A stretch of DNA of 64,000 nucleotides from a virus (Duplodnaviria > Heunggongvirae > Uroviricota > Caudoviricetes). Below are positions 3,484 through 63,047 of the stretch, in pieces. The notes under the pieces were generated by a model. It had not been told where the DNA came from and searched no databases. It saw only the letters and a list, made by a program, of their open reading frames with translations. Positions within the stretch are counted from its first letter, which is position 1. Each line of letters starts with the position of its first letter. The stretch lies in the IMG/VR virus record IMGVR_UViG_3300030434_000006, positions 955 to 64,954 of that record; one strand, 5' to 3'. The position numbers and the translations under genes were made by a program.

Positions 3484-6400
3484 ATGAGTGATAACGAAAT
3501 TACCGACATCGGCGTTATGTCAGGTAAGGCGTATGGTACCGCGCCGCTGTCGGCGGATATGCAGTATCTGGAAACCTACACCAGTTCCGCGCTAAACCGA
3601 AAACTGAAAGGCATTGTGCGATCTGGTTTTTACCTGGGCTTCTCGCCGGTCGCCGGTTCCGGGCTGAATGTCGTCATTACCTCGAAAGAGGCGGAAGGCG
3701 GGCAGGGCGCGGCCTCGATCGATGTGAACGCACACCAGATTACTGTGCAGCACCTGGCCGATCTAACACTACCGGTCGTGGCGGGTAAAACCACCCGTAT
3801 TGTGCTGGAAGCTAACTACAAGCTGGGTGTTAAGACTGACCAGGTAGATATTACCTCCACAGTTGAGGCCGCACGCGTTTTTGCGCAGGATATCTCTGTT
3901 GCGCTGAAGCCGAACCAGCTGGAGCTCTGCCGCGTGCTTGTGCCAACCGGTACCTCGCAGGTTACGCAGGCGATGATCGTCACCAACTACCGTATTAACC
4001 GGCAGGTCGGGATCACGCTGGATTCCATCTACACAAGTGACGACGAGCTGATTGCGGCCAACCTTAAGGGGCTGAAAATCCTCAAAGGCATGATCGATAA
4101 CAACATGGTCATTGCCAATAATGGCTCGGATATTCATGACAAAGCGATGTTCCGTAAGAACATCGAGCTGGATAAGCTGGTCAACGAGAAGCAGCTGATC
4201 GCCGGCGAGAATCTGGCTGATCTGCCAGACGTGCCGGAGGCCCGTGGCCACCTCGGCCTCGGTACCGCTGCACTGGCAGACCAGCAGACAAACCCAATGG
4301 ATATGACGGCAGGTGCGCTGATGGCCGTGGGCGCGTTTGGCGTGGGTGCGCCGTCATTCGTACTGGACAGCAAAATCACCTTACTCACTGAAGTGTCTGT
4401 GACTGAGCAGAATGCCTTCTGGACACTAAGCGGCACCTTCAGTGACGGCCCGATTGATCTTGGCAAAACCACGCAGACGTTGCGCGGCCAGCTATTCAAC
4501 ATGCGCCGGAAATATGATGCTGACGCTGCACTCCTGCAACTGCTGGTGGCGCAGGGTGGCATGATGTATCTGCGTCTGGCAGGTAAAGTTTCAGGCGACT
4601 GGGTGTGGTCCGGGCTATCAGCAGGTGCGGATAAAAACGGCTGGCGGAAGGTGATGGACAGCGCCAGCATGACGCTGGCGGACCTGGTTAAGGCGGGCGT
4701 GGCTAAAGCAGGCGATAACAACGATATCACCAGTACTAGTCAGCTGACCAATATCAACACGCCTAAGCTGACGGTATCTAAAAATCTCGACGTCGGTTCT
4801 CAAATCAGCGCGGGATTCCGTATTGGTGTGATCCGTTCTGAACCTTCTGTACCGTCAATGACGTTTTTGCGGACCGATCAGCCGGATGACAAACCTCCGG
4901 CATACGAAACAGACATCATGCAGATCGTTGGCCGTGTGGCGGCGGTGAGCGGTGATGCCTGGAGCGGAAGGATTCTCGGTGGCATAACTACCACGAACAT
5001 GACGCACGGCGGCGGCAAAATTTCGATTGATGCGCGTACATCAACAGGTGTGATTGCGGCTCGTCTTGCTCTCAACAGTGGAGACGGCTTAGCCACATTA
5101 CAGGGCGCTGGCGGACTGGCTATCACCGGTGGCGGTGGTCTGTCGTCTGACGGCGCGGCCCTTATCACTGCTGATATGATTGCGTTGCAGCTGAAGCCTA
5201 AAACTAAAGACAAAGCCTATTACCTCCGCGGGCGAAAAGCGGACAACACGCTGCACTGGTATATGGGCCAGTCTACGGACAGTACCGATACAGTGACTTG
5301 GGGTAACTCTATCCCGAATACGTGGCTGACACTTGCAGGCGACGGTACGGGTGAAACCAACGTTTCGACGATGAACTTCCGTAATAACGCCATTGTCGGT
5401 GGCAACCTTACTGTAGCTGGCGGGGCAGACTTTACCGGCCCCGTAAACGTGCTGGCGAAAGGTGCGACAGCCGTAGGCGATCTGACAAATGCTGCGCTGG
5501 TGGTTACTGGCAGCAGTAATGATGGCACTCAGGGGATCACGGTTAACAGCTTTGCGCCCACAGTCACATTCATTGACCGCGACGCAGACGCGGCAGGCTT
5601 CCGCTTAAGAGGCGATGGCAGCAGCCTGCGTCTTGACGTTGATGGCAGGGATAACGGCGTAACGTGGAATCAGAATATCGCGCTATTCAGCGATAAAGGG
5701 CATCTTGCATTAGGCAGCGGCAGTGACAGCACCAGCCGTATGCTGACACTTGGAAGCACCACGCCCGGAAAAGGCAATATGTCCGGAGCGTCGCAGATTG
5801 TTGCGATGGCATACGCAAATATCGGAGCAGATGCGACTACACGCGGCATTGGTTTCGGTGTGGAAATGTCAGTAGGTGACGGTAATACTGGGCAAACCGT
5901 GGCTGAAGTTGTTGAGTTTTGGGGTAACAGCAGTGTTGTTAACAAAAATGCAGCTGTAGCGCTCATGTCATCGTTCCGCGGGCATGACAAAGCCAGCCCT
6001 GTTATTGCAACGGCCTATGCCTTTGAGGGGCTACAGACGGCACGCGAAGGTTTAAACCGCTGGAACCTGTTTATGCAGGGAACCGCGCCAAACTATATGC
6101 GCGGACAGACCATCATTGGCGGAACGGATATCGCATTACCTGTTAGCAGTGTGGGACTGGATGTACGCACAGACGCGCGTTTCAAAGGGCAAGTGTCTAT
6201 TGAAAAGAAAGTCACTATTGCGGATGAAATTGTTCAAAAAAATGGTGGGTTTGCTTTCCGTGCCAAGTCTTCTGATTATGCGGCCATTCTCAGAAATGAT
6301 AATGAGAGTTTTTACTTACTCGTTACAAACAAAGGTGATACTGATGGTAAATATAATGACCTCCGACCCATCGCATTCAACCTGGCTAACGGCACGGTCA

Positions 6401-37009: not shown

Positions 37010-38284
37010 ATGTCCAAAGTTAACTGGGATGACCACAGAAAAGCCTTCATCGAGCAGAAGGCGCAGAACGGGATAACCGTCAAAGAGTACTGTGAGCACT
37101 ACGGTCTGCCGTTTAACACCGCACGCCGGGAGCTGAACGGCAAAGCGCTGGCCGCAATGCGTGATCTGGCTGGTGATCACAATCATGATCATTCGAGTGA
37201 TCACGCTTCTGATCATCAAAATGATCACACCAGACAAGAAGACCTGATCATCCGCCGAAACGGGCGCAAAGTCAGGCACAGCGCAGCTTTAGAGGGGGTA
37301 CTGGAACCACGCGCTGACGCAGCAGCGCAGCCAGGCGGGAAGAAAAAGCCCAATGCTTCACATGCCAAAAAGATCATAAATGCCAGTGATCAGGATTCCG
37401 GTCGCCCTAAGCACACCCCAAAGCCACGCGGGGAGGGAAAACCGTTTGAGGAAGGGCATGAAACCAAGCTGGTGGCCAACCGGCGCGGCTACCCACGGCC
37501 AGAGGATTATGAATCAGCATTAGAGGTGCTGGGCGAGGGCGTGGAAGCCAGCGCCATGACGGTGCTGTTTGACTCGCTGGCTCACATGGACCTTCTGAAG
37601 CGCACCACGGCGCGGGCGGTCGAACTGTTTGAGCTGGAAGCCAGTAACCTGAAGAACGGCGGCAAAAAGGATGATGACGAAGGCGGCGGCGGGCCACACC
37701 CAATCCTCAAGATGACCAAGCTGATGATCGAGGTCGGTTATCTGGTCAATGACCACGCTACGCGGGTGGCGGCAATCGCCAGCGGCACCGATAAGAACCG
37801 GCGCGACAATGAGAAGCATGCACTGACGCATAACGCCGGTGAGGTGATCAGCCGTGCCTACCAACTGCGCGAGGAAAAGGACTGGGATTTACTGGAGACG
37901 GCGGAGTACATCGAGCGGCACGGTATCAAACTGCCAGAGTCACTATCCAGACGCCTTGAGAACGAGCTCAAGAACGCCGAACCGCCAGTTGATGAAACCG
38001 GCGCGGTTACAGAGGACCAGCTGGACCAGGATGCACGTAAGTTCCGGGAACAGCAGGCCACCAGCGCGGCGTTTGTTGAGGCGCGCCGTGCGGAAGTGGC
38101 AGCGCTGGTGGATGGCAGCGGATTCGGTGACGTCCAAGCAGACGGAGAGAACCGCGCCGGCGAAACAGCGGGCGAGGGTAATCTCAGCGGCAACTTTGAC
38201 TACATGGCCACGGCGGAGCTGTACGGAGACGACGACGATATCCCGCCTGACATAGACGTCATACAGGGCGAGGACGACGCCTGA
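37010..38284 (+). CDS. terminase small subunit, PacA-like
   Basis: 424 aa directly upstream of, and overlapping, the large terminase; N-terminal DNA-binding-like segment; contains the TGATCA hexamer array. Confidence 0.55.
   Translation: MSKVNWDDHRKAFIEQKAQNGITVKEYCEHYGLPFNTARRELNGKALAAMRDLAGDHNHDHSSDHASDHQNDHTRQEDLIIRRNGRKVRHSAALEGVLEPRADAAAQPGGKKKPNASHAKKIINASDQDSGRPKHTPKPRGEGKPFEEGHETKLVANRRGYPRPEDYESALEVLGEGVEASAMTVLFDSLAHMDLLKRTTARAVELFELEASNLKNGGKKDDDEGGGGPHPILKMTKLMIEVGYLVNDHATRVAAIASGTDKNRRDNEKHALTHNAGEVISRAYQLREEKDWDLLETAEYIERHGIKLPESLSRRLENELKNAEPPVDETGAVTEDQLDQDARKFREQQATSAAFVEARRAEVAALVDGSGFGDVQADGENRAGETAGEGNLSGNFDYMATAELYGDDDDIPPDIDVIQGEDDA
37162..37250 (+). other. pac-like site: TGATC(A/T) hexamers at 12-bp periodicity inside pacA
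   Basis: hexamers at 37162, 37174, 37186, 37198, 37210 and 37222, plus 37245; together they encode GDHNHDHSSDHASDHQNDH. Confidence 0.55.
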
Positions 38285-39795
38285 TGAGCGGTAAGAAGCG
38301 CATAAAGAGCGTTACTACAGACCCGCGCTGGCGCGACATGGTTATCCGCTACCGCTATAACTGGGCGCTGGCCGTCGTTGAGCTGTTTGGCATGATCCCC
38401 ACCTGGCAGCAGGAAGAGATCATGAACTCCGTACAGGAGACGGGGAGCCAGACTACCGTGACGTCCGGACACGGAACGGGTAAATCATCCCTGACGGCCA
38501 TGATGCTGCTGATCTACATGATCATGTACCCGGATGCCCGCGTAATCATCGTGGCCAACAAAATCGGGCAGGTTAAGACCGGCGTTTTCAAGTACGTCAA
38601 AACCTACTGGGCGAACGCCGCCAGACGTCACCCGTGGCTTCAAAACTACTTCACCCTGACCGACACTATGTTTTACGAGAAGTCGCGTAAGGGCATCTGG
38701 GAGGTGCTCTGTAAGGGCTATCGCCTGGGTAACGAGGAAGCGCTTGCCGGTGAGCACGCAGCACACATTCTGCTGATCCTTGATGAGGCGTCGGGTATCT
38801 CTGACAAAGCGATCGCAATCATGCGTGGTGCGCTGACAGAAGAAGATAACCGCATGCTGATGATGTCGCAGCCTACTCGCCCCAGTGGTTACTTCTATGA
38901 CTCGCACCATTCGTTAGCCAGACACCCGGATAACCCTAACGGCTTCTGGAATGCCATTGTCCTCAATTCCGAGGAAGCGCCGCACGTTACCCTGAAATTC
39001 ATCCGTGAAAAGCTGGTGGAGTACGGGGGCCGCGATTCACTGGAATACATGGTGAAGGTGCTGGGCCGCTTCCCGCGCAACGTCAGCGGCTATCTGCTGG
39101 GGCGTGACGAGTGCGATCGCGCAGCGCGCCGGAAAGTGTATCTGGAAAAGGGCTGGGGATGGGTGGCCACCGCCGACGTCGGTAACGGGAGGGATAAGTC
39201 GATCCTCAATATCTGCAAGGTATCCGGGTACGGCGATGCGCGCCGCGTCGTGTCGTTTAAGCTGCTGGAAATGCCCGGCACAATGGACCCGATCTCGTTC
39301 GGTGACTACATCGCTAACGAATGCACCCAGGAGCGATATCCGGGCATCACCATTGCGGTAGATGGCGACGGCGTGGGTTCAGGTACGCTCAAGCAGCTGG
39401 AGCGCCGGGGCGTTAATGCAATCAGTATCCGCTGGGGCCAGCCGCCTTTCAGTAAGAAGGTGAGAGAGCGATTCAAGAATCAGCGCGCCTGGTCGAACAT
39501 CATGGCCGCTGACGCGATCCGGTCGGGCCGGATGCGCATTGATATGTCACAGCACACGGCAGAGCAGGCCTCAAAGATTCCGTACTTCATGGATGAAATG
39601 GGGCGAATTATGATGGTGCCGAAGCCTCAGATGCGTCAGAAACTTAACATCAAATCACCTGACCGCTGGGATACCTACTGCTTCATCTTCCTGATTGGCT
39701 ACCGTCCGGCAGAGGCCGAACTGAGCGAAGATATGGCTGACTTTACGCAGAGCAAACTGGATGAGCTGTCGGAGCTGGACGCGCTGCTGGGCTGA
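38284..39795 (+). CDS. terminase large subunit, PacB-like
   Basis: 503 aa; Walker A VTSGHGTGKS; Walker B-like ILLILDEASG; size matches P1 PacB. Confidence 0.75.
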   Translation: MSGKKRIKSVTTDPRWRDMVIRYRYNWALAVVELFGMIPTWQQEEIMNSVQETGSQTTVTSGHGTGKSSLTAMMLLIYMIMYPDARVIIVANKIGQVKTGVFKYVKTYWANAARRHPWLQNYFTLTDTMFYEKSRKGIWEVLCKGYRLGNEEALAGEHAAHILLILDEASGISDKAIAIMRGALTEEDNRMLMMSQPTRPSGYFYDSHHSLARHPDNPNGFWNAIVLNSEEAPHVTLKFIREKLVEYGGRDSLEYMVKVLGRFPRNVSGYLLGRDECDRAARRKVYLEKGWGWVATADVGNGRDKSILNICKVSGYGDARRVVSFKLLEMPGTMDPISFGDYIANECTQERYPGITIAVDGDGVGSGTLKQLERRGVNAISIRWGQPPFSKKVRERFKNQRAWSNIMAADAIRSGRMRIDMSQHTAEQASKIPYFMDEMGRIMMVPKPQMRQKLNIKSPDRWDTYCFIFLIGYRPAEAELSEDMADFTQSKLDELSELDALLG

Positions 39796-39921: not shown

Positions 39922-41001
39922 TTATTTGCTCTGATTTTTCAGGTTACTTTCCAGCTCACGCAGCAGGCTATACATGTTGCGCATGTTCTTTCCGGCGCGT
40001 GGCTCTTCGCCACCGTAACGCTTGCGGATCTCCGGCATGGTCAGCTGTTCGGTATCGCCTGCAGCCACCTTCTTATCCAGCAGCGCCCAGTCGTATGCTT
40101 CCAGCTTTTCCAGCAGGTCACGGTTTTCGTCAATTTCAGCCTTAAACAGGCGTGCTTCCTGCGCGTCCTTTGCCTTAGCAATCTTCGCCTTCGCCCTGGT
40201 CTCAAACTGAGTGCGGCGCGTGTTCACCGTATACGCCACAGAAGAACGCTGAGCGGCCAGCTGCTTGCTGTAATCCACGTCTTCCATCGTGTACAGCTTG
40301 GCATTCGGCAGTACTGAGCATGCCACGGGAGAAATCGCGTCGTAAGAGGACGTGTACCCGCCGTTACTGTTAACGTTCAGCCTGATATCACGCTCTTTGT
40401 TCAGGTTTTCACCGTAGATAAGCATGCCGTGCGCGCCATAACGGAACGATTCGCCCTCATCTTTTTTGTCGTCGGTGTAGCGCGCAGTCACCTGAATGTC
40501 AGAGTAGTTGCTGGTGCGGGCGCGGTACATTGCGCCTGGCGCTGCGGCTTCAAACGCCTTCATTTCGTCTTCCAGCGACATGATGGCACCGGCAGCGAAC
40601 GGAACCTTACGCAGCTTGCCGATCTGCTTTTCGTAGCGCTTCAGGATATCTTCACGGGTGTGGTTCGCGGTCGCCGTAGCGCGGAAGCGGTTGATAGTGA
40701 CTTGCTTCGGCTCAACGATCAGGGTCGGCACCGGCAGGTAAAGGTTAGTCGTGATCGCGATAGAACGCGCCTGGCGTTTCTCTTCTGCCAGGTCGGCAAA
40801 GCTCTGCCAGTCGGCCAGCAGGTGTTCTGCGCGCTGAAAGGTCTTCTTATCAGTGATAAAGCCGATCGGGCGGCATTCCTCACCCATAGCGTTTTTATCA
40901 ATGAAAATCTGGTTGTCCGTGATGAGAGTCAGCCACTCTTTTTGTACCTGTAGAAAATGTTTATAGCGCTTCTCAAATTCTACATCGCTGAAGTTAGGCA
41001 T
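39922..41001 (-). CDS. hypothetical protein divergent from the lox/cre-like locus
   Basis: 359 aa; occupies the position that c1 holds relative to loxP-cre in P1, but shows no recognisable similarity. Confidence 0.3.
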   Translation of the reverse strand: MPNFSDVEFEKRYKHFLQVQKEWLTLITDNQIFIDKNAMGEECRPIGFITDKKTFQRAEHLLADWQSFADLAEEKRQARSIAITTNLYLPVPTLIVEPKQVTINRFRATATANHTREDILKRYEKQIGKLRKVPFAAGAIMSLEDEMKAFEAAAPGAMYRARTSNYSDIQVTARYTDDKKDEGESFRYGAHGMLIYGENLNKERDIRLNVNSNGGYTSSYDAISPVACSVLPNAKLYTMEDVDYSKQLAAQRSSVAYTVNTRRTQFETRAKAKIAKAKDAQEARLFKAEIDENRDLLEKLEAYDWALLDKKVAAGDTEQLTMPEIRKRYGGEEPRAGKNMRNMYSLLRELESNLKNQSK

Positions 41002-41386
41002 AATTGTATTCCAAAAAAATTAATGAGCGGTGCAAGTCTCTCTGGACTTAATGGAGGCGAATATAGACAGAATCAGTAGCCATGTAAAATTAACTCTCCT
41101 TAGAATTGCAATAATAAGAATAGTCTGCATTGTGCATCTGTCAGATATTTCCGCTGTACACGCTTATTAACAAACTGTGTGTTCAGGGTTGTGTAACAGG
41201 TATCAGGTGCAAAGCGCCTGGGCAAATGGTCCCGACTGATAATAGTTACCTTTAGCAATCAATTTGCATGCCAAATGATCATATATGAAGGTATGGTGCC
41301 GATCACGAACAATAACGTAACGAATTTGCAAATTTTTCGATTTGGCTACTCTTTCAGGCAGTCGCTTTACAAAAAGTGTCAAAATA

Positions 41387-41422
41387 GGAAACTTTAAATA
41401 ATAAGTCTTATATAAAGTTTCC
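41387..41422. other. lox-like recombination site candidate (14-8-14)
   Basis: GGAAACTTTAAATA-ATAAGTCT-TATATAAAGTTTCC; arms 13/14 complementary, 8-bp asymmetric spacer; 190 bp upstream of the Cre-like gene. Confidence 0.5.
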
Positions 41423-41611
41423 CCTGATTCATGTATGCTTGATCAGTGGTTGATGATCAAATGATCAGGTAAACGAAGCCGCTGGCAAAATGTATGCTTT
41501 CTGAGCGGTTTTGCATCAGGCGTCGCTACGTGAAATCTGACGTATCACACCCCTGCTGTTTTCGTAGATTTCGCGTAGCGTTGTCTCTCTGATTTGGGAT
41601 GAAATATATAA

Positions 41612-42643
41612 ATGAAACATCTGGCTCAAATAAAGACCGGCGCACTCCCGGCAGAATTAACGCAATTAACGCCGGAAGACATTGCAAATAACCTGCGCAG
41701 ATTCATCGCAGATAAGGCCGCTTATTCCGAGAATACTTTCCGCGACCTGTTATCCGTTATCCGGCGCTGGGCCTTCTGGTGCAACGAGCGCGATGTGGGC
41801 TACCTGCCGATCGACCCCGAGCTGGCGCGGGAGTACTTTCTGCAGATGGCAGAAAGCGGCCTGGCATCGAGCACGATCGACAAACACTATGCCATGATGA
41901 ACATGCTGTGCCGGGAAAGCGGCCTGCCGGATCTCCGGGGAAGCGTGGACCTGAAACGTTCCATGAAACGCATCCGCCGCGAGGCCGTGCTGCAGGGTGA
42001 ACGCACCGGCCAGGCTGTGCCGTTCCGCCTGCCGGACCTGCAGCTGCTGTCGCACCTCATGGGCCGCTCCGACCGGCTGACCGATCAGCGAAACCTGGCA
42101 TTTCTGTTTGTGGCCTACAACACCCTGTGCCGTATGTCCGAACTCAGCCGCATCCGGGTGCGCGACCTGGATATCAGCGACAGTGGCCATGTGGTGATCA
42201 ACCTGTCACACACTAAAACGATGGTGACGGCCGCGGGCGTGGTCAAGCACCTCAGCCGCGCCGCTGCCGGTCATCTGATGCACTGGCTGGAGCTGTCCGG
42301 GCTGATTCATCATCCGGACGCGATGGTTTTCGGTCCGGTCCGCCACAACAACACGGCTGGCGTGTCGGAAAAGCCAATGTCTGCACCGGCGACCGAGAAG
42401 ATTTTCAAAGACGCATGGGATCTGCTGGGGAAAGAGCCGGTGCAGGATAACAAAGGCCGCTACGCCAAATGGTCCGGCCACAGCGCCCGCGTGGGTGCCG
42501 CGATGGATATGGCCGAACGTGACGCGACGATTACTCAGATCATGCAGGAAGGCACCTGGCAGGATCCGAAAACCGTTATGCGCTACCTTCGCCGCTCTGA
42601 AAGTCAAAAAGGAAAAATGTCTGGCATACTGGACGGAGAATAG
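41612..42643 (+). CDS. Cre-like tyrosine site-specific recombinase
   Basis: 343 aa (same length as P1 Cre); NLAFLFVAYNTLCRMSELSRIRVRDLD matches Cre NLAFLGIAYNTLLRIAEIARIRVKDIS; WSGHSARVGAAMDMA matches WSGHSARVGAARDMA; catalytic Tyr in VMRYLR. Confidence 0.85.
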   Translation: MKHLAQIKTGALPAELTQLTPEDIANNLRRFIADKAAYSENTFRDLLSVIRRWAFWCNERDVGYLPIDPELAREYFLQMAESGLASSTIDKHYAMMNMLCRESGLPDLRGSVDLKRSMKRIRREAVLQGERTGQAVPFRLPDLQLLSHLMGRSDRLTDQRNLAFLFVAYNTLCRMSELSRIRVRDLDISDSGHVVINLSHTKTMVTAAGVVKHLSRAAAGHLMHWLELSGLIHHPDAMVFGPVRHNNTAGVSEKPMSAPATEKIFKDAWDLLGKEPVQDNKGRYAKWSGHSARVGAAMDMAERDATITQIMQEGTWQDPKTVMRYLRRSESQKGKMSGILDGE

Positions 42644-59403: not shown

Positions 59404-59619
59404 ATGAAATTAGGTTTGAAGCAGATCGAATTAGACAAAATGCGCGGCTATTGGAAAGCAAAAGGCTTTGTAGAAGCAGGCAGAACTGAGCCGCTGCGTA
59501 TCAACCGCACCGACTGCTACATCACGTTTCAACGTAAAAACTGGGTATGTATAGACCTGAAGGGTAATACCATTAATAGCAGGCCAATGCTTTTTGCTCT
59601 GCTAAAACACACACTCTAA
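59404..59619 (+). CDS. hypothetical small protein (low-GC segment)
   Basis: 71 aa. Confidence 0.25.
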   Translation: MKLGLKQIELDKMRGYWKAKGFVEAGRTEPLRINRTDCYITFQRKNWVCIDLKGNTINSRPMLFALLKHTL

Positions 59620-60517: not shown

Positions 60518-60655
60518 ATGAGTCGATTAAAAATCGTCTCCCTGTCTGTGTCAGTACTTTTGACACTTGCAGGAGTGGTTGCAGCTTCTGGTAGTGCTGG
60601 ATGGTCTGTAACGACAAACATCATTACCCAAATCACCGTTAACCACGGCAAATAA
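60518..60655 (+). CDS. small secreted-peptide candidate (45 aa), not in the ORF track
   Basis: MSRLKIVSLSVSVLLTLAGVVAASGSAGWSVTTNIITQITVNHGK; SD GGAAAGG; signal-peptide-like N-terminus; terminator follows. Confidence 0.3.
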   Translation: MSRLKIVSLSVSVLLTLAGVVAASGSAGWSVTTNIITQITVNHGK

Positions 60656-60656
60656 A

Positions 60657-60684
60657 ACAAGCCGCCTTCGGGCGGCTTTTTTTA
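60657..60684 (+). terminator. rho-independent terminator
   Basis: gccgcc-ttcg-ggcggc followed by T7. Confidence 0.75.
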
Positions 60685-60699
60685 TGCTCTTTCCGCCAT

Positions 60700-62057: not shown

Positions 62058-62300
62058 CCTACCATGAAACCAGCAACACCCTACCATGAAACCAACAACA
62101 TTCACCATGAAACCAACAATGTTTACCATGAAACCAGCAATGTCTACCATGAAACCAGCAACGCAAAACGTGAAATTTATATTTAAAATCATGTAATTAC
62201 ATCAACGGTGATCTTCTTTGATCTAAATAGGATCTATATAGGATCGATTTATATGATCTATCCAGTGGATAAGTGGATAACCTGCCGTGCTGATTAACTA
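62058..62300. other. oriR-like origin: 5 direct 21-bp iterons, AT-rich segment with 5 GATC, two DnaA-box-like repeats
   Basis: iterons at 62061, 62083, 62104, 62125 and 62146; GATC at 62210, 62220, 62231, 62242 and 62255; AGTGGATAA x2 at 62263..62280. Confidence 0.75.
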
Positions 62301-62390: not shown

Positions 62391-63047
62391 ATGGAAAGTG
62401 CAGATTTTCAGGCCGCACGGGAAAAGCAGGTAAAAGCACAGCAACGCCAACGAGAAAGACACGCAGCAAAACTAGCTGACCCGGAGTTTCGCCAGCAGCA
62501 GTACGCAAAGCAGAAAGCCAGCAGTAGCAGGATGCTTGCCAAACAAATTGAAAAGCGTAATTCCCCGGAGTGGATCGCACAGCAAAAAACCAAAGCGGCA
62601 AAACGCGCTGTAAGCGCATCTGAGCGTCTGAAAGAAAAAAAACCAGCACCAGTAGCAGCGAAACGGCAAACACGCGCCAGCACGTCAGGCAGAGGCCTTA
62701 AAGGACGCACACCGACCGCTGCCGAGCGCGTTGTTATGGATGCGCTGGGAAAGCTGCCCTGCATTGCCTGCCTCCAGCACGGGAAAGAGTCATTGCTTAT
62801 CAGCCTGCATCACATCGAAGGGCGAACTAAACCAGGCGCGCACCTTTTGCAGATCCCCCTTTGTGATCACCACCACCAGCACGCGGCACCAGCCGCAATT
62901 CGTGCAGATTTCCCCTGGCTAGTACCTGTACATGCGGACGGAATTACAGGCGGCAAGGCTGAGTTCTCCCGGCATAACGGCACTGAGAGTGAATTAATGG
63001 CTAAAGCCTATGTGCTGGCGGGTATAGATTTGATGCTGAATAACTAA
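62391..63047 (+). CDS. HNH-like nuclease-domain protein, possibly Ref-like
   Basis: 218 aa; disordered K/R/Q-rich N-terminal third, then a Cys/His cluster CIACLQHGKESLLISLHHIEGRTK...CDHHHQH; architecture recalls P1 Ref. Confidence 0.3.
   Translation: MESADFQAAREKQVKAQQRQRERHAAKLADPEFRQQQYAKQKASSSRMLAKQIEKRNSPEWIAQQKTKAAKRAVSASERLKEKKPAPVAAKRQTRASTSGRGLKGRTPTAAERVVMDALGKLPCIACLQHGKESLLISLHHIEGRTKPGAHLLQIPLCDHHHQHAAPAAIRADFPWLVPVHADGITGGKAEFSRHNGTESELMAKAYVLAGIDLMLNN

What the first reader, a model, noticed from the sequence alone, without database searches (positions are those of the whole stretch)
41387..42643. Cre homologue with a candidate 14-8-14 lox-like site 190 bp upstream
The 343-aa recombinase aligns block-for-block with P1 Cre. 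The only Cre-sized inverted repeat with an 8-bp asymmetric spacer in the adjacent intergenic region is GGAAACTTTAAATA-ATAAGTCT-TATATAAAGTTTCC. Its arm sequences differ completely from loxP, so this would be a new Cre/lox specificity pair, useful as an orthogonal recombination tool.
Basis: partly seen in the sequence, partly recalled or inferred. Interest (0 to 1): 0.6.

Follow-up and report, generated by a model that had tools for sequence, protein, structure and literature searches.

The report
Known Panto/pox recombinase system, rediscovered
The gene and its upstream inverted repeat are real, but they are the Panto recombinase and its pox site from Pantoea phage-plasmids, tested experimentally in 2016 and shown to cross-react with Dre/rox, so this is neither a new nor an orthogonal recombination tool.

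Summary
A 343-aa Cre homologue lies at 41612-42643 (+). One lox-shaped inverted repeat, GAAACTTTAAATA-ATAAGTCT-TATATAAAGTTTC (41388-41421), ends 190 bp upstream of the start codon. It is far beyond chance.

- The window comes from a roughly 91-kb Pantoea sp. GD03673 contig that looks like a D6/P1-type phage-plasmid.
- The protein differs from the published Panto recombinase (Karimova et al. 2016, PMC4957104) at one supported position, V211I.
- The site equals native pox. The published test site differs only by the authors' deliberate A-to-T symmetrising change.
- Panto recombines pox in E. coli and human cells. It also recombines rox and weakly loxP, and Dre recombines pox.
- The arms do not "differ completely" from loxP: 8-9 of 13 bases are shared.

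Comparative data add support. Of 80 relatives, 68 carry a 13-8-13 site at the same position, with arms that change symmetrically. Nineteen viral contigs carry pox variants that differ mainly in the spacer.

The likely natural role, inferred from P1, is to circularise injected DNA and resolve plasmid dimers.

One side observation may be new: a 57-bp palindromic element (41524-41580), conserved from P1 to Pantoea, just upstream of the recombinase start codon (in P1, upstream of the intervening cra gene).

The parts
41388..41421 (.). Native pox site, 13-8-13. Left arm GAAACTTTAAATA (41388-41400), spacer ATAAGTCT (41401-41408), right arm TATATAAAGTTTC (41409-41421). There is one arm asymmetry at arm position 10 (A on the left, T on the right).
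   Evidence: Sequence and inverted repeat. It matches the pEVO-pox primer site GAAACTTTAAATAATAAGTCTTATTTAAAGTTTC at 33 of 34 positions, and the one difference is the published symmetrising A-to-T change. It is conserved in Pantoea plasmids while the sequence just to its left diverges. The same position holds a site in 68 of 80 relatives.
41612..42643 (+). Panto-type Cre-family tyrosine recombinase gene, 343 aa. The protein is identical to WP_279772303.1.
   Evidence: Cre E=4e-74. Pfam Phage_integrase. 54.7% identity to Dre and 42% to Cre. Exact accession match. One supported difference from published Panto, V211I. Catalytic residues R174, K202, H290, R293, W316 and Y325 are present, with R44/P259/K263 as in Dre and Panto.
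41524..41580 (.). Conserved 57-bp palindromic element, CGCTACGTGAAATCTG-N25-TAGATTTCGCGTAGCG, ending 31 nt before the start codon. It is probably a regulatory DNA site for expression of the recombinase; its function is unknown.
   Evidence: I3. The exact 11-mer sits in the same interval in P1, D6 and distant loci. The element is found in 63 loci and is exactly 57 bp in all but two distinct versions. The arms do not covary like an RNA stem. It occurs once in the window. No Rfam family reaches threshold.
41441..41466 (.). Three GATC (Dam) sites within 26 bp, between pox and the 57-bp element.
   Evidence: The P1 annotation lists three Dam sites in the cre regulatory region, two of them just before the same palindromic element.
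39922..41001 (-). C1-type phage repressor gene, divergent from the recombinase (context).
   Evidence: tblastn: D6 C1 29% identity, E=1e-38; P1 C1 E=8e-12. Same order as the D6 immC record, c1 - rox - dre.
37010..39795 (+). pacA and pacB terminase genes (context). A pac-like array of seven GATC sites lies at 37163-37249 inside pacA, six of them TGATCA, the first six spaced exactly 12 bp apart. It is about 4.2 kb from pox.
   Evidence: D6 PacB 74% and P1 PacB 53% identity. GATC array. In P1, pac lies inside pacA about 4.0 kb from lox.

Best explanation
This is the Panto/pox site-specific recombination module of a D6/P1-like phage-plasmid of Pantoea. The 343-aa Cre-family tyrosine recombinase binds as one monomer to each 13-bp arm of the single 34-bp pox site. 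Two sites synapse in a tetramer, and the strands are cut and exchanged within the asymmetric 8-bp spacer through a Holliday intermediate, without accessory factors, as with Cre/loxP and Dre/rox.

What is shown: the identity of the protein and of the site. What comes from the literature: recombination activity, for a one-residue variant of the protein on a symmetrised pox site. What is inferred from P1 and from gene order: in the plasmid prophage the module circularises injected, terminally redundant DNA and resolves plasmid dimers before partition.
For: - Full-length Cre homology with all six catalytic residues.
- Nearest characterised relative is Dre at 53-55% identity. The three specificity residues reported for Dre and Panto (R, P and K at Cre positions 43, 259 and 263) are present.
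- The source is Pantoea sp. GD03673. About 90% identical DNA is found in four circular 90-95 kb Pantoea plasmids.
- The protein matches the Panto sequence printed in the paper's supplement, with V211I the only difference supported by both the amino-acid and the codon-optimised DNA text.
- The site equals pox.
- Published assays show efficient excision and co-integration in E. coli and activity in HeLa cells, with cross-reaction to rox.
- Comparative support found here: 68 of 80 relatives carry a 13-8-13 site a median 202 bp upstream. The same scan recovers loxP itself in P1-like E. coli loci. The arms are symmetric in 645 of 741 cells, against 568 +/- 7 when arms are shuffled between sites.
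- Nineteen IMG/VR viral contigs carry pox variants. Where the DNA was held, an 84-99.7% identical recombinase starts 190-201 bp downstream. Variation is concentrated in spacer positions 3-7.
- Gene order lpa-pacA-pacB-c1-site-recombinase-orf2-orf3-dut matches D6. The pac-like array lies 4.2 kb from the site, as in P1.
- There is only one site in the window.
Against: - Nothing was assayed for this exact protein (V211) or for the native asymmetric site. The paper tested the symmetrised site.
- The Panto sequence and native pox were read from a machine-read PDF with dropped characters, so 'one difference' is a best reading.
- The cleavage positions in pox have not been mapped.
- The natural roles (circularisation, dimer resolution) are transferred from P1, not shown for any Pantoea plasmid.
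Confidence: 0.93

Rival explanations
1. A new Cre/lox specificity pair, orthogonal to existing tools.
For: The arms differ from loxP at 4-5 of 13 positions. Cre did not recombine pox in the published assays.
Against: The pair was published as Panto/pox in 2016. Panto recombines rox and weakly loxP, and Dre recombines pox. Protein and site are essentially identical to the published ones.
Confidence: 0.03
2. The inverted repeat is not a recombination site but a transcription terminator or a repressor operator of the c1/immunity region.
For: It lies in a regulatory intergenic region next to c1. The spacer is itself partly palindromic (ATAAG-T-CTTAT), so the whole site could form a hairpin.
Against: It is AT-rich, with no G+C stem or T run, and the terminator scan did not call it. 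Its arms match the rox arm at 10-11 of 13 positions. Equivalent sites with symmetric arm changes accompany 68 of 80 homologous recombinases whatever the neighbouring genes are. The same sequence is recombined in published assays.
Confidence: 0.02
3. The site works as a rox-style 14-4-14 site (AAACTTTAAATAAT-AAGT-CTTATATAAAGTTT) with a shorter crossover region, rather than as a loxP-style 13-8-13 site.
For: The left 14-mer contains the rox arm AACTTTAAATAAT exactly. The annotated 32-bp rox reads as 14-bp inverted repeats around a 4-bp centre.
Against: In this parse the arms match at only 12 of 14 positions. Natural pox variants vary at spacer positions 3-7 of the 8-bp parse, which reaches beyond a 4-bp centre. 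Mutagenesis of rox indicated that its crossover region is close in length to that of loxP (PMC4777119). Across the wider family the pattern is ATA|AT.....T|TATA.
Confidence: 0.1

Closest known systems
Panto/pox (Pantoea sp. aB; Karimova et al. 2016, Sci Rep 6:30130, PMC4957104)
   Same: Same genus. 343-aa protein with one supported substitution (V211I). Same 34-bp native site, including the single arm asymmetry. In the relatives examined here the site sits at the same place just upstream of the gene.
   Different: The window carries V211 where Panto and the 13 other full-length cluster members compared carry I211. The published assays used a symmetrised pox. Related plasmids carry other spacer alleles.
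Dre/rox of phage D6 (Sauer and McDermott 2004; GenBank AY753669)
   Same: Same gene order: pacA-pacB-c1-site-recombinase-orf2-orf3-dut. 53-55% protein identity. Arm core AACTTTAAATA shared. Same three specificity residues. Published mutual cross-recombination.
   Different: rox is annotated as 32 bp and has A at arm position 10 in both arms. Its spacer is ATTGGCAT against ATAAGTCT, and the paper attributes the lack of rox x pox co-integration to incompatible spacers. Its host is E. coli.
Cre/loxP of phage P1
   Same: Fold, catalytic residues and 13-8-13 site architecture. One site per genome, upstream of the gene and about 4 kb from pac. Dam sites and the 57-bp palindromic element lie in the leader region.
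   Different: 42% identity. The arms differ at positions 1, 2 and 8-10. P1 has coi, imcA and imcB between c1 and lox, and cra between lox and cre.

Membership tests
Cre-type tyrosine recombinases | Full-length homology to Cre, covering both the N-terminal and the catalytic domain | tested here: met
   phmmer E=4e-74, residues 12-341 against Cre 11-340. Pfam PF00589.
Cre-type tyrosine recombinases | Catalytic residues R173, K201, H289, R292, W315 and Y324 (Cre numbering) | tested here: met
   R174, K202, H290, R293, W316 and Y325 are all present.
Cre-type tyrosine recombinases | A 34-bp 13-8-13 target site with an asymmetric spacer close to the gene | tested here: met
   Site at 41388-41421, 1 mismatch between arms, 190 bp upstream. 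The same arrangement is seen in 68 of 80 relatives.
Cre-type tyrosine recombinases | Recombination without accessory proteins | not testable with these tools
   Published for Panto in E. coli and HeLa cells. Not assayed for this exact variant.
Panto/pox system | Protein essentially identical to Panto (ZP_07380973.1) | tested here: met
   Aligned to the supplement text. V211I is the only difference supported by both the amino-acid and the codon-optimised DNA versions. The other discrepancies are dropped or misread characters.
Panto/pox system | Site identical to pox | tested here: met
   33 of 34 positions match the primer-borne pox. The one difference is the stated A-to-T symmetrisation. The printed native site has lost 3 characters in the machine-read text.
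Panto/pox system | Activity on the native, asymmetric site | not testable with these tools
   The paper tested the symmetrised site only.
Dre/rox system | Protein is Dre and site is rox | tested here: not met
   53-55% identity to Dre. Arms match at 10-11 of 13 positions and the spacer is different. It is a relative with overlapping specificity, not Dre/rox itself.
P1/D6-like phage-plasmid, pac-c1-lox region | Gene order lpa, pacA, pacB, c1 (reverse strand), site, recombinase, with a pac-like array in pacA | tested here: met
   tblastn with D6 and P1 proteins. D6 and P1 annotation. GATC array at 37163-37249. Relatives are circular 90-95 kb plasmids and 87-95 kb viral contigs.

The most novel reading that the evidence does not exclude
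The lox-like site and the recombinase gene form a portable cassette that also contains a 57-bp palindromic element I could not find described. In the window it reads CGCTACGTGAAATCTG-N25-TAGATTTCGCGTAGCG; the family consensus has CAGAATTCACGTAGCG as the right arm. Its length and arm sequence are fixed from P1 cre to Pantoea, Rahnella and Serratia homologues, even though the lox arms and the recombinases themselves diverge.

The proposed reading is that it is an operator for a conserved host factor, or an unusual promoter architecture, that sets recombinase expression. Separately, the conserved A/T asymmetry of the two pox arms and the many spacer alleles might have functional meaning, such as the order of strand exchange or incompatibility groups among co-resident plasmids.
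Probability: 0.3. Interest if true: 0.45.

Novelty: already known. Interest (0 to 1): 0.12.

Why it matters
As a tool, nothing new follows. Panto/pox has been available since 2016 and is known to be promiscuous: it acts on rox and weakly on loxP, and it is toxic at high dose. That makes it a poor choice for orthogonal designs.

Finding the single 13-8-13 inverted repeat beside a Cre homologue is the same logic that found the published system.

Three modest gains come from the comparative work.
- A catalogue of natural pox spacer alleles attached to nearly identical recombinases.
- Evidence for a large Erwiniaceae/Yersiniaceae family of Cre-like cassettes, each with its own site whose arms change symmetrically.
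- A conserved 57-bp element upstream of these genes, including P1 cre, which may bear on how Cre-family expression is controlled in nature.

Tried and rejected
- Megablast of the region against the phage collection gave no match. The protein mode was needed to reach D6 and P1.
- A full-text search for the site sequence found nothing. The sequence was in a supplement.
- The P1 genome paper and Sauer and McDermott 2004 are not held, so statements about P1 biology rest on GenBank annotation and on general knowledge.
- A supplement search of the 2023 NAR paper found no held files.
- Terminator reading of the site: rejected, because the scan does not call it and the composition is wrong.
- RNA-hairpin reading of the 57-bp element: it folds well (z=-3.6). 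But the arm pairs that vary do so independently: 89.4% of cells are paired against 88.9% in shuffles, and positions 9/49 and 12/46 are unpaired in about half of the sequences. A small inner hairpin is not supported either. No Rfam family reaches threshold; the only listing was a chance-level ArcZ match (E=0.48, 18.7 bits against a cut-off of 66).
- I compared the element by eye with sigma-32, CRP and ARG-box consensus sequences from memory. The spacing or key bases do not fit, and I make no claim.
- Search for a conserved neighbouring regulator gene across 80 loci: only the recombinase recurs.
- Search for further copies of the element's arm in the window: none beyond chance.
- A C1-operator-like 17-mer at 41105-41121 is single and not significant.

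Full report
**What is in the sequence.** The repeat finder reports it as arms of 15 nt, 93% complementary, with 6 nt between them. The ORF at 41612-42643 (+) encodes 343 aa.

The protein matches P1 Cre structures over its whole length: E=4e-74, residues 12-341 against 11-340. It also carries the Pfam Phage_integrase domain.

A scan of my own for 13-8-13 inverted repeats finds one in the 610-bp c1-recombinase intergenic region, with one mismatch. Only 2 of 5000 dinucleotide shuffles of that region produce any. The whole window holds two against 0.05 expected, and the second, at 60652, is G+C-rich with a T run, like a terminator.

The conserved unit is the 34-bp site at 41388-41421: GAAACTTTAAATA / ATAAGTCT / TATATAAAGTTTC.

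**What it is.** A protein search of the phage collection puts Dre of phage D6 first (54.7% identity) and Cre of P1 and P7 second (about 42%). The D6 immC record annotates pacA, pacB, c1 (reverse strand), the rox site, dre, orf2, orf3 and dut. tblastn of those proteins against the window reproduces the same order: lpa, pacA, pacB at 74% identity, c1 at 29%, the recombinase, orf2, orf3 and dut.

The rox site read from that record is TAACTTTAAATAATTGGCATTATTTAAAGTTA. This agrees with the published site, written there on the other strand (PMC4777119). Its arm core AACTTTAAATA is identical to the left arm of the window site.

The DNA itself has about 90% identical matches only in four circular 90-95 kb Pantoea plasmids. 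The protein is exactly WP_279772303.1 of Pantoea sp. GD03673. A genome scan returns that strain's 91-kb contig at 100% identity (L005).

**It is already described.** Karimova et al. 2016 (PMC4957104) searched for Cre-like proteins and then looked for 13-8-13 inverted repeats near the gene. They named 'Panto', from Pantoea sp. aB, and its site 'pox'.

Their supplement prints the Panto protein and a codon-optimised gene. Aligned with the window protein, the only difference supported by both texts is V211I. The other discrepancies are characters lost in machine reading. The 13 other full-length members of the 90% cluster that I compared carry I211.

Their cloning primer carries GAAACTTTAAATAATAAGTCTTATTTAAAGTTTC. 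The figure legend states that full symmetry was introduced into pox by an A-to-T change. Undoing that change gives exactly the window site.

The paper reports 52% identity to Dre and about 40% to Cre. I find 53.4% and 41.5%. It also names R, P and K at Cre positions 43, 259 and 263 as shared by Dre and Panto. The window protein has R44, P259 and K263, plus all six catalytic residues.

**What is known about its function.** According to that paper:
- Panto excises and co-integrates pox substrates efficiently in E. coli, and it works in HeLa cells.
- It recombines rox equally well and shows a little activity on loxP.
- Dre recombines pox.
- High Panto expression is toxic to mammalian cells.
- The authors judge the system less suitable for combined use.

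A 13x13 cross-test in 2023 again shows cross-reaction among Dre, Panto and related sites (PMC10250229).

The statement that the arms differ completely from loxP is also wrong: 8 or 9 of 13 positions are the same.

**Comparative evidence gathered here.** A profile of the window protein, Dre and Cre retrieved 80 loci, mostly from Pantoea, Erwinia, Mixta, Rahnella and related genera.

I scanned the 1 kb upstream of each gene. In 68 loci there is a 13-8-13 inverted repeat with the inner ATA...TAT signature, a median 202 bp before the match. In the two P1-like E. coli loci the scan returns loxP itself, which serves as a positive control.

Over 57 distinct sites the two arms agree in 645 of 741 cells. 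When right arms are shuffled among sites the figure is 568 +/- 7, with a maximum of 590 in 2000 shuffles. Arm positions 6, 8 and 9 switch state in both arms together. This is what is expected of sites read by a symmetric pair of recombinase monomers.

Within the Panto clade the arms are nearly constant, and the sequence just left of the site diverges. Nineteen IMG/VR viral contigs, many of 87-95 kb, carry pox-like sites. Where the locus reaches far enough, a recombinase 84-99.7% identical starts 190-201 bp downstream.

Variation is concentrated in spacer positions 3-7: ATAAGTCT, ATAAGCCT, ATAAGTGT, ATAAACAT, ATACCCAT and ATTACTCT. That fits a crossover region which the protein does not read but which must match between partner sites.

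**How it most likely works in nature.** This part is inferred. In P1, pac lies in pacA about 4.0 kb from lox, and there is one lox site per genome. In the window an array of seven GATC sites (six of them TGATCA), the first six exactly 12 bp apart, lies inside pacA at 37163-37249. That is 4.2 kb from the single pox site.

By analogy with P1 (general knowledge), the recombinase would join the two copies of the site in terminally redundant injected DNA. It would also resolve plasmid dimers before partition. A ParM gene lies next to this region in the related plasmid. None of this has been tested for a Pantoea plasmid.

**Site architecture.** rox reads as 14-bp inverted repeats around a 4-bp centre, and the window site can be read that way with 12 of 14 matching. 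Three things favour a loxP-like crossover region: the natural spacer variation, the family-wide pattern ATA|AT.....T|TATA, and published rox mutagenesis. The cleavage points themselves are unmapped.

**A side observation.** Between pox and the start codon lies a second inverted repeat, at 41524-41580 (I3). Its right arm contains TTCGCGTAGCG. That exact 11-mer occurs in 13 of 85 loci and, wherever I checked its position, lies just upstream of the recombinase gene. The list includes P1 and D6.

A relaxed search finds the element in 63 loci, and it is exactly 57 bp long in all but two distinct versions. The consensus is CGCTACGTGAAATCTG-N25-CAGAATTCACGTAGCG. In the window and in D6 it ends about 30 nt before the recombinase start codon; in most other loci the distance to the alignment start is consistent with that. 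In P1 it ends 33 nt before cra, and its left arm overlaps the annotated -10 box of the P3cre promoter.

Further properties:
- The arms do not covary as an RNA stem would.
- No neighbouring gene other than the recombinase recurs across loci.
- The element is single in the window.
- No Rfam family reaches threshold.
- In three loci its internal segment is inverted.

I read it as a conserved DNA-level regulatory site, possibly bound by a host factor. I found no description of it in the papers I could search, but the key older P1 papers were not available to me.

**Verdict.** The pair is the published Panto/pox system and is known to cross-react with Dre/rox. The novelty class is 'already known' and interest is low.

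Noticed in passing
window 41524-41580 (also L004 117-173 in P1; L001 about 5007-5063 in D6): A 57-bp palindromic element, consensus CGCTACGTGAAATCTG-N25-CAGAATTCACGTAGCG, lies shortly upstream of Cre-family genes in 63 loci from P1 to Pantoea, Rahnella and Serratia. In the window and D6 it ends about 30 nt before the start codon. Its length is fixed and its outer 7 bp are nearly invariant. The arms do not covary like an RNA stem. Its internal orientation is flipped in L058, L059 and L082. D6 has lost the outer part of the left arm. Function unknown.
   Followed up: partly
window 41441-41466: Three GATC sites lie within 26 bp, between pox and the 57-bp element. P1 has annotated Dam sites at the equivalent place in the cre regulatory region, which suggests methylation-sensitive expression here too.
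   Followed up: no
window 37163-37249: Seven GATC sites (six of them TGATCA), the first six exactly 12 bp apart, inside pacA. They encode a run of Asp-His repeats in the protein. This is probably the pac site, about 4.2 kb from pox, as in P1.
   Followed up: partly
window 41397 / 41412; L002, L003, L005-L008: All six Panto-clade sites found without bias keep the same arm asymmetry at arm position 10: a rox-like A in the left arm and the family-consensus T in the right arm. The published experiments removed this asymmetry, so its significance is untested.
   Followed up: partly
L086-L104 (IMG/VR) and L002, L003, L006-L008: Recombinases 84-99.7% identical sit next to pox sites with at least six different spacer alleles. 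Sites with different spacers should not recombine with each other, so these may mark incompatibility groups among related phage-plasmids.
   Followed up: partly
L052 (Pantoea sp. GD03673 contig 16): The same host genome carries a second Cre-like gene (44% identity). It has its own site, ATAACCTTATATA-ATTATGTT-TATATAAGGCCAG, and its own copy of the 57-bp element.
   Followed up: no
L009-L084: A large family of Cre-like cassettes, about 45% identical, is found in Erwiniaceae and Yersiniaceae, on large plasmids and long contigs. Each has a lox-like site whose arm changes are mirrored in both arms. None shares a neighbouring gene. Some may overlap with systems tested in PMC10250229.
   Followed up: partly
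window 60651-60686; 62210-62258; 62409-63026; 59422-59607: A terminator-like 13-8-13 inverted repeat (AAAACAAGCCG...CGGCTTTTTTT). A second dense GATC cluster. A homologue of the P1 Ref endonuclease (47% identity). A weak match to P1 Cra, far from the recombinase gene.
   Followed up: no
window 41105-41121: ATTGCAATAATAAGAAT resembles the P1 C1 operator consensus as I recall it. It lies inside a palindrome upstream of c1. It is a single copy and is not significant on its own.
   Followed up: partly
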